64,000 bases of DNA. Source: an uncultured virus (IMG/VR IMGVR_UViG_3300043438_001944). Lineage: Duplodnaviria > Heunggongvirae > Uroviricota > Caudoviricetes. Numbering within the stretch: position 1 is the stretch's first letter; every line of letters starts with the position of its first letter. The translations under genes and the position numbers were made by a program. The notes under the pieces are model-generated. The model ran no database searches, was not told the DNA's origin, and saw only the letters and a program-made list of their open reading frames with translations. The DNA is taken from IMG/VR virus record IMGVR_UViG_3300043438_001944, positions 1 through 64,000 of that record. The stretch is one strand, 5' to 3'. Of this stretch, positions 37,706 through 63,771 are shown piece after piece.

Positions 37706-38134
37706 ATGGAAAATATAATAGATAAACAAGGAGACTTAATATTACTTAGAGGATTACCTGGTTCAGGAAAATCCACTTTGGGTAATGTAATATTACAATT
37801 ACCAAATAACAATCCACAAGAAGTTTTATCTGCTGATGATTTTTTTGTAAACAACGAAGGGGAATATACCTTCGATGGTACAAAATTAAAAGAGGCTCAC
37901 AATTACTGTCAATTTAGATGTTCTGAAAGAATGAGACAACAAATAGTTAGAATTGTTGTTGCAAATACATTTACCGAAGATTGGGAAATGAAACCCTATT
38001 TTGACATGGCGGAAAGATACAATTATAGGGTTCATACTTTAATTGTAGAAAATAGACACGAAAGTGAAAATGTTCACGGAGTCCCTGAAGATAAACTTCA
38101 AAAAATGAAGAATAGGTTTGAAATAAAATTATAG
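37706..38134 (+). CDS. P-loop polynucleotide-kinase-like protein (AAA_33/N4BP2-like)
   Basis: LILLRGLPGSGKST, SADDFF, EAH..CQ, VANTF, NVHGVP. Confidence 0.85.
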   Translation: MENIIDKQGDLILLRGLPGSGKSTLGNVILQLPNNNPQEVLSADDFFVNNEGEYTFDGTKLKEAHNYCQFRCSERMRQQIVRIVVANTFTEDWEMKPYFDMAERYNYRVHTLIVENRHESENVHGVPEDKLQKMKNRFEIKL

Positions 38135-38383
38135 ATGAGTCAATTTATTGAATCTTATTTTAAAACAACGTTATCACCAAAAAAAGTTAAAATGAAATTC
38201 TCTTCTCATACATTTAAAAATCAATGGGCAGTATACCCATTACCGTTTGCATACATTTATTTTGAAACATGTGAACCAGAATCACATAAATCATTATTCC
38301 AAAACAAAATATGTGCGGTGTATTTGTCTTTTAATTGGTTAAAGTGGACTTACAATATTGGATTTTATAAACCAATTAATTAA
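38135..38383 (+). CDS. Small hypothetical protein
   Basis: 82-aa aromatic-rich ORF in operon. Confidence 0.6.
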   Translation: MSQFIESYFKTTLSPKKVKMKFSSHTFKNQWAVYPLPFAYIYFETCEPESHKSLFQNKICAVYLSFNWLKWTYNIGFYKPIN

Positions 38384-39561
38384 TGTTGGAAATTTTAGAA
38401 AAATACCACAAAGACGGTTTGTTACATAAACAAATCCACCCAACCTACGACTTAACTATTTGGAATTATTCACCAAAGGTTCAATACGAAAAATTATGGG
38501 ATGATATTACTTTGCAATGTCGTGGGTTGGTAACCAATTCGAAAGGAGATATTGTTGCAAGGCCATTTAAAAAATTCTTCAACTACGAGGAGCATGAACC
38601 AGAAGAAATACCCAATGAAAATTATGTTGTTTATGAAAAGATGGATGGATCTTTAGGTATTCTTTTTTATTATGAAGAAGAATTAACCGATGAGAGAAGA
38701 TACAACATATGGTTTAATAACAATTATGAAACAGGAATGGAAAGGTTCTTTGACCCTAACAATTTACCTGATTTTGATAATTCATATTATGAACCGACAC
38801 CTAAAACAAAAGGTGAATGGATTTTAGCAACTCGTGGTTCTTTTACATCACCTCAGGCAATTAAGGGTAAAGAAATACTTGACAGACACGACATCAGTGC
38901 GTGGAGAAAAGACAATACATATTTGTTTGAAATTATTTATCCTGAAAATAGAATTGTGGTCGATTACAAAGGTGAGGAAAAATTAGTTGTTCTTGGTGCG
39001 ATTCATACTGAAACTGGAAATGAGGTTCCCGATAGTTCCTTGTTTTTTTTACAAGAAAGTGGATTTGAAATTGTAACAACATATAAGACATGGGGAGAAG
39101 GGTACGATTTACTTAAAGAAGAAATTAGTAAAGACAGAGAAGGTTATGTAATTCGTTTTAAAAACGGATTTAGAATGAAAATTAAAGGAGATGAATATAA
39201 ACGTCTTCATAAGATATTAACCAACATATCCAATAGAGATATATTTGAATATGTAAAAGAAGGGAAACCATTAGACGAAATACTTGATAAAGTTCCCGAC
39301 GAATTTTATAATTGGGTTAAAGAAACTAAAGAAGATTTTGAACATCAATTCAAAACAATTGATAAAGACTATACAAGAACATATAAAACCATTATAGACA
39401 TTAATGGAATTACCGATAAAAAGGCATTTGCGAACTACGCATTAAGTTATAAACACTCAGCGGTATTGTTTGCAATGTATGATAATAAGAAGTACGACCA
39501 TATTATTTGGAAAACACTATACCCAACATACTCAAAACCATTTAAGAAAGATGACAACTGA
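38383..39561 (+). CDS. RNA ligase 1 (T4 RnlA-like)
   Basis: CRGL, RPFKKFFN, EKMDGSL, ATRGSF, FEII..NRIVV, EGYVI, KIK. Confidence 0.92.
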   Translation: MLEILEKYHKDGLLHKQIHPTYDLTIWNYSPKVQYEKLWDDITLQCRGLVTNSKGDIVARPFKKFFNYEEHEPEEIPNENYVVYEKMDGSLGILFYYEEELTDERRYNIWFNNNYETGMERFFDPNNLPDFDNSYYEPTPKTKGEWILATRGSFTSPQAIKGKEILDRHDISAWRKDNTYLFEIIYPENRIVVDYKGEEKLVVLGAIHTETGNEVPDSSLFFLQESGFEIVTTYKTWGEGYDLLKEEISKDREGYVIRFKNGFRMKIKGDEYKRLHKILTNISNRDIFEYVKEGKPLDEILDKVPDEFYNWVKETKEDFEHQFKTIDKDYTRTYKTIIDINGITDKKAFANYALSYKHSAVLFAMYDNKKYDHIIWKTLYPTYSKPFKKDDN

Positions 39562-40024
39562 TAAAAAAAGATTATATCTTGATGATGTGAGAACACCACA
39601 TGCCGAAGATTGGATTATTGTTAGAAATTACGACCAATTTAAATCTACTATAAGATTATACGGATTAAATAATTTTGAGGTTATTTCTTTAGACCATGAT
39701 TTAGGGGATAGTGCAATGGTTGAATATTATAATAATGTGAAAGATAATTACATATTAAATTATGATAATATAAATGAAAAAACAGGAATGGATTGTTGTA
39801 AATTTTTAGTTAATGAAAGTATTGAAAAAAATATACCATTACCAACAGTATATGTCCATTCCGCAAACCCAATTGGTAGTCATAATATGATGGGTTACAT
39901 TAATAACTATTTAAAAAATTGTCATTTAGAACAATCATGTATACGAGTTGAAATTAAACATACAGTTGATGAAAGTTTTATGTTAAGTCCCGAGGCTAGA
40001 AGAGCGAAATGGAAAAGACCTTAA
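39551..40024 (+). CDS. Cyclic-phosphate-processing receiver-domain protein
   Basis: LYLDDVRTP, ISLDHDLG, TG.D, VHSANPIG; start at MTTDKK. Confidence 0.8.
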   Translation: MTTDKKRLYLDDVRTPHAEDWIIVRNYDQFKSTIRLYGLNNFEVISLDHDLGDSAMVEYYNNVKDNYILNYDNINEKTGMDCCKFLVNESIEKNIPLPTVYVHSANPIGSHNMMGYINNYLKNCHLEQSCIRVEIKHTVDESFMLSPEARRAKWKRP

Positions 40025-52389: not shown

Positions 52390-52461
52390 GTTGATGTAGC
52401 TTAATGGTGAAGCTTTCGGCTGTTAACCGAACGACTATAGGTTCGAGTCCTATCATCAACG
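52390..52461 (+). tRNA. tRNA-Asn(GUU)
   Basis: ttcgg-ctgttaa-ccgaa; acceptor gttgatg/catcaac. Confidence 0.9.
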
Positions 52462-52466
52462 CAAAC

Positions 52467-54302: not shown

Positions 54303-54376
54303 GGATTGTTGGTGAAGTTGGTTATCATGCCACCCTGTCACGGTGGAGTTCACGGGTTCGAGTCCCGTACAGTCCG
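54303..54376 (+). tRNA. tRNA-Asp(GUC)
   Basis: ccacc-ctgtcac-ggtgg. Confidence 0.92.
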
Positions 54377-54575
54377 CACGGTTCGGTTAGTCACCGAATA
54401 GTATGTCCAATATGAAGAGAAGTGGTTTGACGACCATATGGAACTGATGATAGGACAAGGTTCTATTTAGATTGACCGTCTACTGTAAGGGGTAATATAG
54501 TAACCCAATGGTCTATTCCTAACCCGAAAGGGGACAGCTAAGACACCTGTGAGTTGGATAAATGAAGGTGTCAAC

Positions 54576-59153: not shown

Positions 59154-59349
59154 CTATTTAAAGTATGGGACTCCGATGGAAGTCCACAAGAAGAGCAGAA
59201 GTTTTTCATCCATCATTTATTATCATGGAGACCGCTAAATCGAGTTAGTGAAAATCTACATTCTCCGTGATAATTTCATTCAAAACATCTACCGGTGGTT
59301 CCACACTAAGGTTATGTGAGGTTTCGGCTGATAAAAGGATGTTATATAT

Positions 59350-59497
59350 TGTAGTGTGACGAAACTGGCAAACGTGCCCTCCTGTCTCGGGGGCGGTGAA
59401 AAAGAAATAGGTAAGTAATATGGGGTAGACCACCAGCCGGCCGGCAAAGTGTTACTTACTGAATCTCATCTTGGTGGTTCGAGTCCATCCGCTACAG
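59350..59497 (+). ncRNA. tRNA-like RNA with a ~80-nt variable arm
   Basis: Acceptor tgtagtg/cgctaca-G, D-arm acgaaactggcaaacgt, arm ccctc-ctgtctc-ggggg, T-arm ggtgg-ttcgagt-ccatc, long inserted stem gtaagtaatat/gtgttacttac. Confidence 0.75.
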
Positions 59498-60651: not shown

Positions 60652-61452
60652 TTGGCCGCCTATGGTCAACAAAATAAACCATGAAAGTGGGATAAAGTGA
60701 TTTCATTTGGTTGAATGAGATTGCGGTTTTAGAAATAGAACTCGAGTAGGCAAGCAAGATATCATTGAACCTTAAGTACTGAGGGTAACACTGTAGGGAA
60801 AGTGGTTTAGTGACCAAGCGATGCAGGTCGTTTGGTTGAGTTCGGAAGAACAATAAGAATAACTTGTAGAATTATTACAAGAAGTAGGACCTCCAATCTT
60901 ACAATTGTGTGATTCAATATAATGGGAATTTTAAAACCGAAAGGTATGGTAGTGTACAAGTGGTGTTGTTACTATCCTTAATTAGACCCTACCAAGGGTT
61001 TAGTTTTGAAGAGGTCCAAAAATATGGAGGCAGGGATGTCTCAGAGAGTAGTTTAGTATCGAGTCGCTCAAAAGGTGGCTTGGCTGGTCGACGAACCACT
61101 ACTTTCCTAATCTGCAAACCAAAAACTTTGTTAATTCAGGTTTAACAACTCATAATTAAAAAGAAAAAGTGTTCGTCAGTCATTGGAGACAGGTGGCTAC
61201 TTAGTCGTGAGGGGTTCACGGCCATAAAGGGACTCAATCCCAATATGATTTTTAAGAAAGTTCTCTAAACCCATAAGGTTTAATTGGGATGGCAATCTCG
61301 AAGAGTAATAAGTATTAAAAGAGTATCTGATGACTTAAGGATTGGTTAATCTAATTGACCGCCGCTGAGGATTACTACTCAAAAGGTAGTGGAAAAGAAT
61401 GGGAAACAATAATCCGTTCAAAAGATTCTCGTTAAGACATGTATTCTCAGTG
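60652..61452 (+). ncRNA. Large ornate ncRNA, GOLLD-like
   Basis: About 800 nt with no credible ORF and visibly higher GC; many short hairpins (cca-tgaaag-tgg, acc-gaaa-ggt, two ctcaaaag-capped stems); own promoter and terminator; lies in a phage tRNA region. Confidence 0.65.
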
Positions 61453-61525
61453 TTTTTTTTTCTTTGTTTACTAAAACAAAGTGGTGGAATTGGAACGTTT
61501 TAAAACCGTTCGGCCCTAAGAAAAC

Positions 61526-63334: not shown

Positions 63335-63726
63335 GGGGGTGCCTGGCATTGATTTCAGGTATCGGGAATAAGTGGCACGTAGTCAGACTTCATCTATGAC
63401 TTAAATCTACGGTGGAAAATTTCAAACGGCAACGTTTACAAAAACATGGAAATTGCAGGTTTACTTGCAACTTCCAACGTAGCAGTAGCCTAAGGCGAAA
63501 CTACAATCGGGTCGACTGGCATATAACCTAGGAACAGAAGCCTTCAAGGTGTAACACCACTTAGAGTGTTGGAGCAAATCTGACGGCTCTTGAAAATCCG
63601 GTTAGGAACAGTATTGATGGTTTCCTGTAATTAACCTTCTATTTGTCTGTTGAGAACCAATAGAATAAACGTGTAGTCATTTATTGTTGAACAGGAAAGA
63701 CACGGGTTCGAGTCCCGTCACCTCCA
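63335..63726 (+). ncRNA. ssrA: tmRNA
   Basis: 5' GGGGGTG pairs with CACCTCC-A (G3:U); T-arm acggg-ttcgagt-cccgt; tag ORF 63428-63493 GNVYKNMEIAGLLATSNVAVA*. Confidence 0.92.
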
Positions 63727-63771
63727 CAAAGCTTCTTAGCCGTAGCTTTTTTGATTAGTAAAGTAAATAGG

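What the first reader, a model, noticed from the sequence alone, without database searches (positions are those of the whole stretch)
59350..59497. 148-nt tRNA-like RNA with a giant branched variable arm and non-canonical anticodon loop
Seen: complete acceptor, class-II-style D-arm, anticodon stem and T-arm. About 80 nt occupy the variable position, forming an 11-bp stem (gtaagtaatat/gtgttacttac) capped by GC-rich mini-hairpins. The loop CUGUCUC has a pyrimidine at position 37, unlike functional tRNAs, and a normal tRNA-Asp(GUC) already exists at 54303. Inference: not a decoding tRNA. It may be a tRNA-scaffolded RNA such as a decoy for anticodon nucleases, a protein-binding aptamer, or a precursor cut and rejoined by the phage RNA ligase.
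Basis: partly seen in the sequence, partly recalled or inferred. Interest (0 to 1): 0.75.

Follow-up and report, generated by a model that had tools for sequence, protein, structure and literature searches.

The report
tRNA-like RNA tied to asparagine synthesis
This giant phage carries a copy of an apparently undescribed tRNA-shaped RNA that many Bacteroidota bacteria keep beside an asparagine-regulator-like gene and that probably serves not to read codons but as a reusable handle on which aspartate is turned into asparagine.

Summary
In detail: 59350-59497 is a full cloverleaf with a 79-nt structured variable arm, missed by ARAGORN and Rfam. It is neither a pseudogene nor phage-specific. I recovered 290 distinct homologues: 139 viral and 151 chromosomal (titled records almost all Bacteroidota), with covarying helices.

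The family keeps the aspartyl-tRNA synthetase signals (GUC, C38, G73, G2-C71). It carries them on a tRNA-Asn-like body: U1-A72 (the GatCAB determinant) and T-stem pairs that keep Asp-tRNA off EF-Tu. The decoding features U33 and purine-37 are relaxed or lost.

In bacteria it lies head-to-head with an asnC-like gene. In 71 Sphingobacteriales genomes, all 60 RNA carriers have GatB and lack AsnB, and all 9 AsnB genomes lack both RNA and GatB.

Best reading (0.65): a non-ribosomal carrier on which AspRS and GatCAB make asparagine, taken up by phages as a metabolic aid. Charging, amidation and release are untested, and an extra D-loop base argues against GatCAB. Phage copies add a variable but self-complementary palindrome (77 of 86), suggesting dimers.

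Ten paper searches found no description. Two earlier scan notes on look-alike phage DNA did not mention it.

The parts
59350..59497 (+). Whole tRNA-like RNA (U1 to G73); CCA not encoded
   Evidence: own covariance model scores it 126 bits against 47 or less for the window's tRNAs (the element was in the training set)
59350..59356 (+). Acceptor stem 5' strand: U1 (pairs A72, GatCAB determinant), G2 (pairs C71)
   Evidence: A72 in 65 of 66 and C71 in 66 of 66 in the unbiased set; role from PMC9976931 s48 and PMC2811023
59359..59375 (+). Class-II (Leu-like) D arm, 3-bp stem, G18G19, one extra base at 20a; 43 of 290 relatives carry a hairpin insert here
59377..59393 (+). Anticodon arm; GUC at 59384-86, U37 at 59387, C38 at 59388
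59395..59470 (+). Variable arm: inner helix 59395-99/59466-70, conserved A-rich internal loop 59400-09/59461-65, outer helix 59410-21/59449-60
59422..59434 (+). Invariant GG-RUWGA-CCAC motif at the tip of the long arm (86 viral and 43 bacterial members of 290)
   Evidence: partly built into the pattern
59436..59445 (+). 10-nt palindrome, probable RNA-RNA dimer site
   Evidence: 77 of 86 viral long-arm members have a palindrome of 6 nt or more here, shuffle mean 18.9, maximum 30; self-duplex -24.1 against hairpin -2.6 kcal/mol
59473..59489 (+). T arm with G49-C65, G50-U64, U51-A63 (weak EF-Tu class)
   Evidence: PMC1904265 abstract, section headings and discussion
59490..59497 (+). Acceptor 3' strand and discriminator G73
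   Evidence: G73 in 66 of 66
54303..54377 (+). Canonical tRNA-Asp(GUC), G1-C72: the phage's decoding Asp tRNA (context)
52390..52462 (+). Phage tRNA-Asn with G1-C72: lacks the GatCAB determinant, so it should need free Asn and host AsnRS (context)

Best explanation
The RNA is a dedicated, non-ribosomal carrier for tRNA-dependent asparagine synthesis. (1) It is transcribed from its own promoter opposite an AsnC-like regulator, presumably when Asn is low (position shown; regulation inferred). (2) Host AspRS charges it with Asp through GUC, C38, G73 and G2-C71 (determinants shown; charging inferred). (3) GatCAB recognises U1-A72 and amidates Asp to Asn (determinant and co-occurrence shown; reaction inferred). 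(4) Weak T-stem pairs, pyrimidine 37, relaxed U33 and the huge arm keep it off EF-Tu and the ribosome, which matters because Asn on a GUC anticodon would mistranslate Asp codons (features shown; exclusion inferred). (5) Asn is released by hydrolysis or an unknown factor and loaded on tRNA-Asn by AsnRS (wholly inferred). Large phages of these hosts carry a copy to raise Asn supply, often with a palindrome that would dimerise it (inferred).
For: Chimeric identity at positions the patterns did not fix: GUC 65 of 66, G73 66 of 66, A72 65 of 66, C71 66 of 66; G49-C65 in 148 and A51-U63 in 149 of 151 bacterial members. G49-C65 and A51-U63 are the tRNA-Asn pairs that block EF-Tu binding of Asp-charged tRNA (PMC1904265). 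Bacterial tRNA-Asp has strictly G1-C72, a GatCAB antideterminant, while U1-A72 is the determinant (PMC9976931 s29, s48). A divergent AsnC-like gene is the immediate upstream neighbour in 52 of 80 loci; its best NCBIfam and PDB matches are AsnC. In 141 Bacteroidia genomes, all 25 RNA carriers have the close AsnC homologue (5 of 116 others at E<1e-39; 14 of 116 at 1e-25), 22 of them adjacent. All 25 have GatB (82 of 116 others). None has AsnA or E. coli-type AsnB (20 of 116 others). Among 53 GlnRS genomes, where GatCAB is not needed for Gln, 13 of the 14 with stand-alone GatB carry the RNA; four others instead have a gatC-gatA-gatB::second-AspRS operon. In 71 Sphingobacteriales genomes, 60 RNA carriers are all GatB+ and AsnB-, and 9 AsnB+ genomes are all RNA- and GatB-, needing at least 2 changes on an AspRS tree. 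G021 (AsnB+) keeps asnC and a usual neighbour but lacks the RNA; G111 has an Lrp/AsnC gene head-to-head with asnB; G159 (AsnA+) keeps only a decayed copy. A TAnnTTTG promoter-like motif (consensus recalled) lies upstream in 33 of 52 loci, shuffle mean 4.2. Four of 4 phage records checked have a normal tRNA-Asp and a G1-C72 tRNA-Asn.
Against: No biochemistry was possible. The D loop has an extra base at 20a, the kind of base that makes GatCAB reject tRNA-Asp and tRNA-Glu; 43 of 290 members have D-loop hairpin inserts and the large arm lies near the GatB tail. Whether the host AspRS is discriminating could not be shown: all 59 readable N-termini of 60 fetched lack the recalled His/Gly non-discriminating signature, including genomes without AsnRS. 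Three of 25 RNA carriers had no AsnRS hit. By hand count, 71 of 141 genomes have GatB but no RNA, GlnRS, AsnA or AsnB over cut-off, so the RNA is not the only solution. The AsnC match (151.7 bits) is under the curated cut-off (227). Genomes are related, so the Fisher values overstate support. One of 3 complete RNA-bearing phages also encodes an AsnB-family protein. No release enzyme was found nearby. G73 plus a long arm is also the serine signal.
Confidence: 0.65

Rival explanations
1. Regulatory or buffering RNA of the same pathway: AsnC-controlled, it binds or is charged by AspRS or GatCAB to titrate them or to report Asp/Asn status, but supplies little Asn.
For: Same synteny and identity evidence; the conserved internal loop and tip motif look like protein-binding sites; the D-loop antideterminant could make amidation slow.
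Against: Does not explain strict exclusion with AsnB/AsnA or replacement by a GatB::AspRS fusion operon; copy-number expansion to 2-7 suits a flux role.
Confidence: 0.13
2. Non-ribosomal donor of Asp or Asn to a transferase (cell envelope, lipid or peptide modification), like the non-elongator tRNA-Gly of staphylococci.
For: Weak EF-Tu T stem like non-elongator tRNA-Gly; anticodon loop unfit for decoding.
Against: No transferase-like family recurs among 418 neighbour proteins; the only recurrent immediate neighbour is AsnC (only four cluster representatives were family-scanned). Loss tracks AsnB gain.
Confidence: 0.08
3. Decoy for tRNA-cleaving or tRNA-modifying defence enzymes, or an AspRS sponge used by the phage.
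For: Sits in phage tRNA clusters (65 of 118 viral members have another same-strand tRNA in the locus); the window encodes an RNA ligase and an AAA_33 kinase-like protein; the phage-specific palindrome could raise avidity.
Against: Host chromosomes carry it stably beside asnC across several orders; a decoy should copy the tRNA-Asp loop, yet position 37 differs and 32/33 vary; U1-A72 and the Asn-type T stem would be unexplained. A secondary decoy role in phages is not excluded.
Confidence: 0.07
4. A serine-accepting missense or allo-type tRNA that reads Asp codons.
For: G73, G2-C71 and a long arm are SerRS signals; GUC is among the commonest allo-tRNA anticodons (PMC5389517).
Against: 7/5 acceptor/T geometry, not 8/4 or 9/3; A72 rather than C72; U33 and R37 not kept; link to AsnC and GatB unexplained.
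Confidence: 0.04
5. Intron-containing precursor cut and rejoined to a normal tRNA, or a decaying pseudogene.
For: A short-arm phage variant (L068) looks like a deletion between short direct repeats; the phage has an RNA ligase.
Against: Covariation throughout; continuous arm lengths; abnormal 37 and U1-A72 would remain; present in hosts independent of phage enzymes.
Confidence: 0.03

Closest known systems
Indirect Asn-tRNA pathway (ND-AspRS + GatCAB on tRNA-Asn), including its use as the only Asn source in Bdellovibrio, S. aureus, Thermus and Deinococcus (PMC4206432 sections 16-17 read; PMC9976931 s48 read)
   Same: Same enzymes and same tRNA signals (U1-A72, G73, weak T stem); same genomic setting of AsnRS + GlnRS + GatCAB without Asn synthetase, which PMC4206432 lists for some Bacteroidetes.
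   Different: The carrier is not tRNA-Asn: it has the Asp anticodon, looks unable to decode, has a Leu-like body with a 10-120-nt arm and sits opposite an asnC-like gene. PMC4206432 assumed tRNA-Asn was the carrier.
Non-elongator tRNA-Gly of staphylococci (PMC1904265 discussion read)
   Same: A tRNA species set aside from translation by weak EF-Tu pairs and used as a metabolic aminoacyl carrier.
   Different: That one is normal-sized and donates Gly to peptidoglycan; here the identity is chimeric and the linked enzymes are GatCAB.
Allo-tRNAs and selC* tRNAs (Mukai et al., PMC5389517, passages read)
   Same: Long variable arm, G73, GUC anticodon frequent, found in metagenomes and phages.
   Different: Those have 8/4 or 9/3 geometry and a Sec-like D arm; this family is 7/5 with a Leu-like D loop.
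tRNA-Other of Bacillus cereus (one passage in PMC5389517; otherwise recalled) and YrlA Y RNAs (Rfam RF02553)
   Same: tRNA-like small RNAs with non-decoding roles.
   Different: No Rfam YrlA match on the element; no Ro60-like neighbour cluster noticed; a different synthetase is implicated.
Palindromic kissing or dimer sites such as the HIV-1 dimer initiation loop and multimeric phage RNAs such as GOLLD (recalled; GOLLD present at 61044)
   Same: A variable but self-complementary 6-10-nt sequence at an exposed tip.
   Different: Here it is grafted on a tRNA arm and enriched only in phage copies (8 of 43 bacterial, at or below chance). Dimerisation is untested.

Membership tests
Canonical elongator tRNA-Asp | GUC, C38, G73, G2-C71 | tested here: met
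   65, 64, 66 and 66 (C71) of 66
Canonical elongator tRNA-Asp | G1-C72, short variable loop, U33, purine 37, tight T stem (G49-U65, G51-C63) | tested here: not met
   A72 in 65 of 66; 79-nt arm; U33 41 of 66; Y37 65 of 66; G49-C65 with A51-U63 or U51-A63
tRNA-Asn (GatCAB substrate) | U1-A72, G73, G49-C65, U in the 51-63 pair | tested here: met
tRNA-Asn (GatCAB substrate) | GUU anticodon; no extra base at D-loop 20a | tested here: not met
   anticodon GUC; D region of 20 nt with one extra base after G18G19
tRNA-Asn (GatCAB substrate) | Aspartylation and transamidation in vitro | not testable with these tools
   needs biochemistry
Allo-tRNA (8/4 or 9/3) | Acceptor 8-9 bp, T stem 3-4 bp, long D stem with tetraloop | tested here: not met
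   7-bp acceptor, 5-bp T stem, 3-bp D stem
tRNA-Ser | G73, G2-C71, large variable arm; also C72, C11-G24, G30-C40 | tested here: inconclusive
   first three met; A72, mostly U11-A24, no G30-C40
Any Rfam 15 family | Score at gathering threshold, or any E<=10 hit on the element | tested here: not met
   six homologue loci gave no hit over a gathering score on the members. ARAGORN does short-arm members tRNA-Asp
AsnC regulon member | Divergent from an asnC-like gene | tested here: met
   52 of 80 loci; 22 of 25 genomes; regulator under the NCBIfam cut-off but best match AsnC
AsnC regulon member | Asn-dependent transcription control | not testable with these tools
   needs expression data with and without Asn

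The most novel reading that the evidence does not exclude
An RNA gene that replaces an enzyme gene: a tRNA-derived, reusable carrier with Asp anticodon and Asn acceptor identity stands where asparagine synthetase would stand in the AsnC regulon of many Bacteroidota, is their main route to asparagine, and has been captured by jumbo phages as an RNA-only auxiliary metabolic gene that self-assembles through palindromes.
Probability: 0.5. Interest if true: 0.93.

Novelty: new variant of a known kind. Interest (0 to 1): 0.85.

Why it matters
It offers a testable answer to a noted puzzle: why some Bacteroidetes keep GatCAB although they have both AsnRS and GlnRS and no asparagine synthetase (PMC4206432). 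If right, tRNA-dependent amino-acid synthesis can be uncoupled from the decoding tRNA and run on a purpose-built RNA, and a phage can carry a metabolic aid made only of RNA. The family is common in cultured soil and freshwater bacteria, and its long forms are invisible to ARAGORN and Rfam. It would also be a natural scaffold showing how far a tRNA can be rebuilt while staying an enzyme substrate.

Tried and rejected
- Rfam and ARAGORN gave nothing on the element. Relaxed ARAGORN was noise.
- BLAST of cultured phages and plasmids found no homologue.
- A strict pattern on a phylum-wide sample hit only 7 of 231 genomes. It missed genomes the covariance model later found (e.g. G006, G011), so it was not used for counts.
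- Discriminating versus non-discriminating AspRS from N-terminal residues: no difference between groups. The signature is recalled and was not found in paper searches. Inconclusive.
- Whole-RNA cofolding did not separate phage from bacterial copies (medians -12.5 and -10.5 kcal/mol). Only the palindrome count is used.
- Expression: contigs of three soil RNA-Seq runs of one study lie mostly on the two Pedobacter copies in L329, with adapters near the predicted ends and one contig joining the 3' end to U1. These are contigs from mixed organisms, so this is a weak hint only, not proof of ends or level.
- No class-II synthetase was found in 4 phage records, and no asnC next to viral or short-arm metagenomic members.
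- The 5' acceptor parse failed, so U1 is inferred there from A72 and taken directly.
- The Asn content of phage ORFs (6.9% against 5.5% in host neighbour genes) is confounded by AT content and is not counted as evidence.
- Paper searches found no description of this family. The library lacks most subscription papers, and I read no supplements (those of PMC5389517 and PMC4206432 could bear on novelty and on the genus lists).

Full report
Setting. The window is bases 1-64000 of a 71.7-kb virus record estimated 21% complete, with T4-like capsid, portal and terminase, PhoH, an RNA ligase, 11 tRNAs, tmRNA and GOLLD: a fragment of a jumbo phage.

Observation. 59350-59497 folds as a complete cloverleaf with a 79-nt variable arm, nearly as stable as the unconstrained fold. 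Neither ARAGORN nor Rfam reports it.

A family, not a relic. Of the 80 chromosomal records shown with titles, 79 name Bacteroidota. A metagenome scan added short-arm members, two on cellular-looking contigs. In a 61-sequence alignment, 97% of cells pair and 27 of 34 pairs change on both sides, including both variable-arm helices. Arm length runs from about 10 to over 100 nt. Bacteroidota-type arms share an inner helix and an A-rich internal loop; the longest add an outer helix and an invariant tip motif.

What is conserved. Several patterns fixed the anticodon and 3' end, so I tallied separately the hits, whose pattern fixed only the tip motif and T loop. Of 120 matches, 34 without a T stem and 10 without a parsed anticodon arm were dropped, and 66 unique rows remained. 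GUC stood in 65 (the last is a parsing shift), C38 in 64, G73 in 66, C71 in 66 and A72 in 65. U33 stood in only 41, and position 37 was a pyrimidine in 65. Canonical tRNAs in the same phage loci had U33 in 409 and a purine at 37 in 410 of 411. So selection keeps what AspRS reads (G73, G34, U35, C36, C38; PMC9976931 section 29) and drops what the ribosome needs. The first pair is U1-A72, the GatCAB determinant, where bacterial tRNA-Asp has strictly G1-C72 (sections 29 and 48; PMC2811023 passages). The T stem has G49-C65 in 148 and A51-U63 in 149 of 151 bacterial members, and 126 and 86 (plus 47 U51-A63) of 139 viral ones. G49-C65 and A51-U63 are the tRNA-Asn pairs that stop EF-Tu binding the aspartylated form (PMC1904265 abstract, headings and discussion). 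The RNA is thus an Asp anticodon on an Asn acceptor and T arm, in a Leu-like class-II body.

Genomic context. In 52 of 80 bacterial loci the nearest upstream gene is a divergent Lrp-family regulator whose best matches are AsnC (NCBIfam 151.7 bits, under the cut-off of 227; E. coli AsnC 2cg4, E 9e-30). That E. coli asnC is divergent from and controls asnA is recalled. A promoter-like TAnnTTTG (consensus recalled) precedes the RNA in 33 of those 52 loci (shuffles 4.2).

Co-occurrence, class level. With a covariance model on 141 Bacteroidia genomes, scores were bimodal: 25 genomes above 85 bits, ordinary tRNAs at 60 or below, one in between (only 23 candidates per genome were scored, so misses are possible). 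All 25 have the close AsnC homologue, against 5 of 116 others at E<1e-39 (a threshold chosen after seeing the list; 14 of 116 at 1e-25), and 22 have it adjacent. All 25 have GatB and none has AsnA or E. coli-type AsnB, against 20 of 116. GatA was present in 5 of 5 named carriers, over cut-off in 4 and in pieces in one. Among 53 GlnRS genomes, 13 of the 14 with stand-alone GatB carry the RNA. Four others carry a gatC-gatA-gatB operon fused to a second AspRS that has His where the native enzymes have Leu, Lys or Met. G307 (unpublished) is only one of the 116 in these denominators.

Co-occurrence, order level. In 71 Sphingobacteriales genomes, 60 carry the RNA, mostly twice, and all 60 are GatB+ and AsnB-. 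Of the 11 without it, 9 are AsnB+ and GatB-, one 1.8-Mb genome has neither, and one is GatB+. An AspRS tree of 28 rows (12 of the 60 carriers, all 9 AsnB genomes) needs at least 2 changes, though it shows signs of gene transfer. Single cases fit: an empty asnC locus in an AsnB genome, asnB head-to-head with an Lrp/AsnC gene in G111, and a copy with altered anticodon and a 7-nt arm in the AsnA genome G159.

Against. The D loop has an extra base at 20a, a known GatCAB antideterminant, and 43 of 290 members have D-loop inserts. AspRS discrimination could not be read from sequence. Three carriers had no AsnRS hit. 71 of 141 genomes have GatB but no RNA, GlnRS, AsnA or AsnB over cut-off (hand count), so other routes exist. 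No release factor was found. One of three complete carrier phages has an AsnB-family gene.

The phage copy. The window and three complete carrier phages (G353-G355) each have a normal tRNA-Asp, so this RNA is extra. Their tRNA-Asn begins G1-C72, as do 10 of 15 distinct tRNA-Asn in the viral loci, so it lacks the GatCAB signal and should depend on free Asn. The phage copies keep every identity element of the host RNA. What they add is a palindrome after the tip motif: 77 of 86 have one of 6 nt or more, with 11 different 6-nt cores, against 18.9 expected and 7 of 86 in the adjacent control window. Bacterial long forms do not (8 of 43). Several 6-nt forms cannot be hairpins, so intermolecular pairing is the simplest reading. 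It is untested.

Mechanism, shown versus inferred. Shown: structure, conserved identity set, synteny, co-occurrence and exclusion. Inferred: charging by AspRS (about 0.8), amidation by GatCAB (about 0.7), release of Asn for AsnRS (about 0.6), benefit to the phage (about 0.5). Overall 0.65.

Known or new. No Rfam family and no description in ten searches of the held library. What I saw of each paper: PMC9976931 passages and sections 29 and 48; PMC4206432 passages and sections 16 and 17; PMC1904265 abstract, outline and discussion; PMC2811023, PMC5389517, PMC6523644 and PMC7609411 passages only; no supplements. Short-arm members are probably annotated as ordinary tRNA-Asp, since ARAGORN of them so. 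It works like the indirect Asn pathway but is not tRNA-Asn, tRNA-Asp or an allo-tRNA. The scan's earlier notes on two look-alike phage windows concerned tRNA sets; a word search found nothing.

Noticed in passing
window 59164-59345 (+): Three adjacent ~55-65-nt elements between tRNA-Met and this RNA are conserved at 80-95% in related phages and appear to come and go as separate modules. The first folds as a stem with an internal loop. No Rfam match. Possibly further small RNAs.
   Followed up: partly
window 61044-61453 and 63335-63729: GOLLD RNA (299 bits) and a phage tmRNA lie just downstream.
   Followed up: no
L605-L608 (G299, G326, G265, G351): gatC-gatA operon followed by a ~1105-aa GatB::AspRS fusion, a covalent transamidosome-like protein, in four Bacteroidia genomes that lack the RNA.
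   Followed up: partly
L611 (G260); also G310: A 641-aa protein with a weak GatB_N match followed by a second gene; by recalled appearance an archaeal-type GatE/GatD pair in a bacterial genome. Not family-tested.
   Followed up: no
G159:C23:55338-55413 (L599): Decayed family member (anticodon AUC, 7-nt arm) in a genome that has AsnA.
   Followed up: yes
L637 and L650: Short-arm members on cellular-looking contigs of 73% and 56% GC, each near a superoxide-dismutase-like ORF (recognised by eye) and not beside asnC; the family probably extends beyond Bacteroidota.
   Followed up: partly
viral members, D loop (e.g. L003, L024, L039, L200): D-loop inserts are hairpins or palindromes, giving some copies two potential self-pairing sites; one recurring insert repeats part of the anticodon-loop sequence.
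   Followed up: partly
L292, L295, L298, L300, L310 (Cyclobacteriaceae): Bacterial mid-length arms in this family end in an 8-nt palindrome (12 of 108 members without the tip motif).
   Followed up: no
L325; G409: Tandem expansion to 5 and 7 copies.
   Followed up: no
window 37706-40024: AAA_33 kinase-like protein, T4-type RNA ligase and cyclic-phosphate receiver domain: a probable RNA-repair cluster.
   Followed up: no
L678 4425-4509 (G355): ARAGORN calls a tRNA-Ser with anticodon ACT in a complete phage, unusual for bacterial systems.
   Followed up: no
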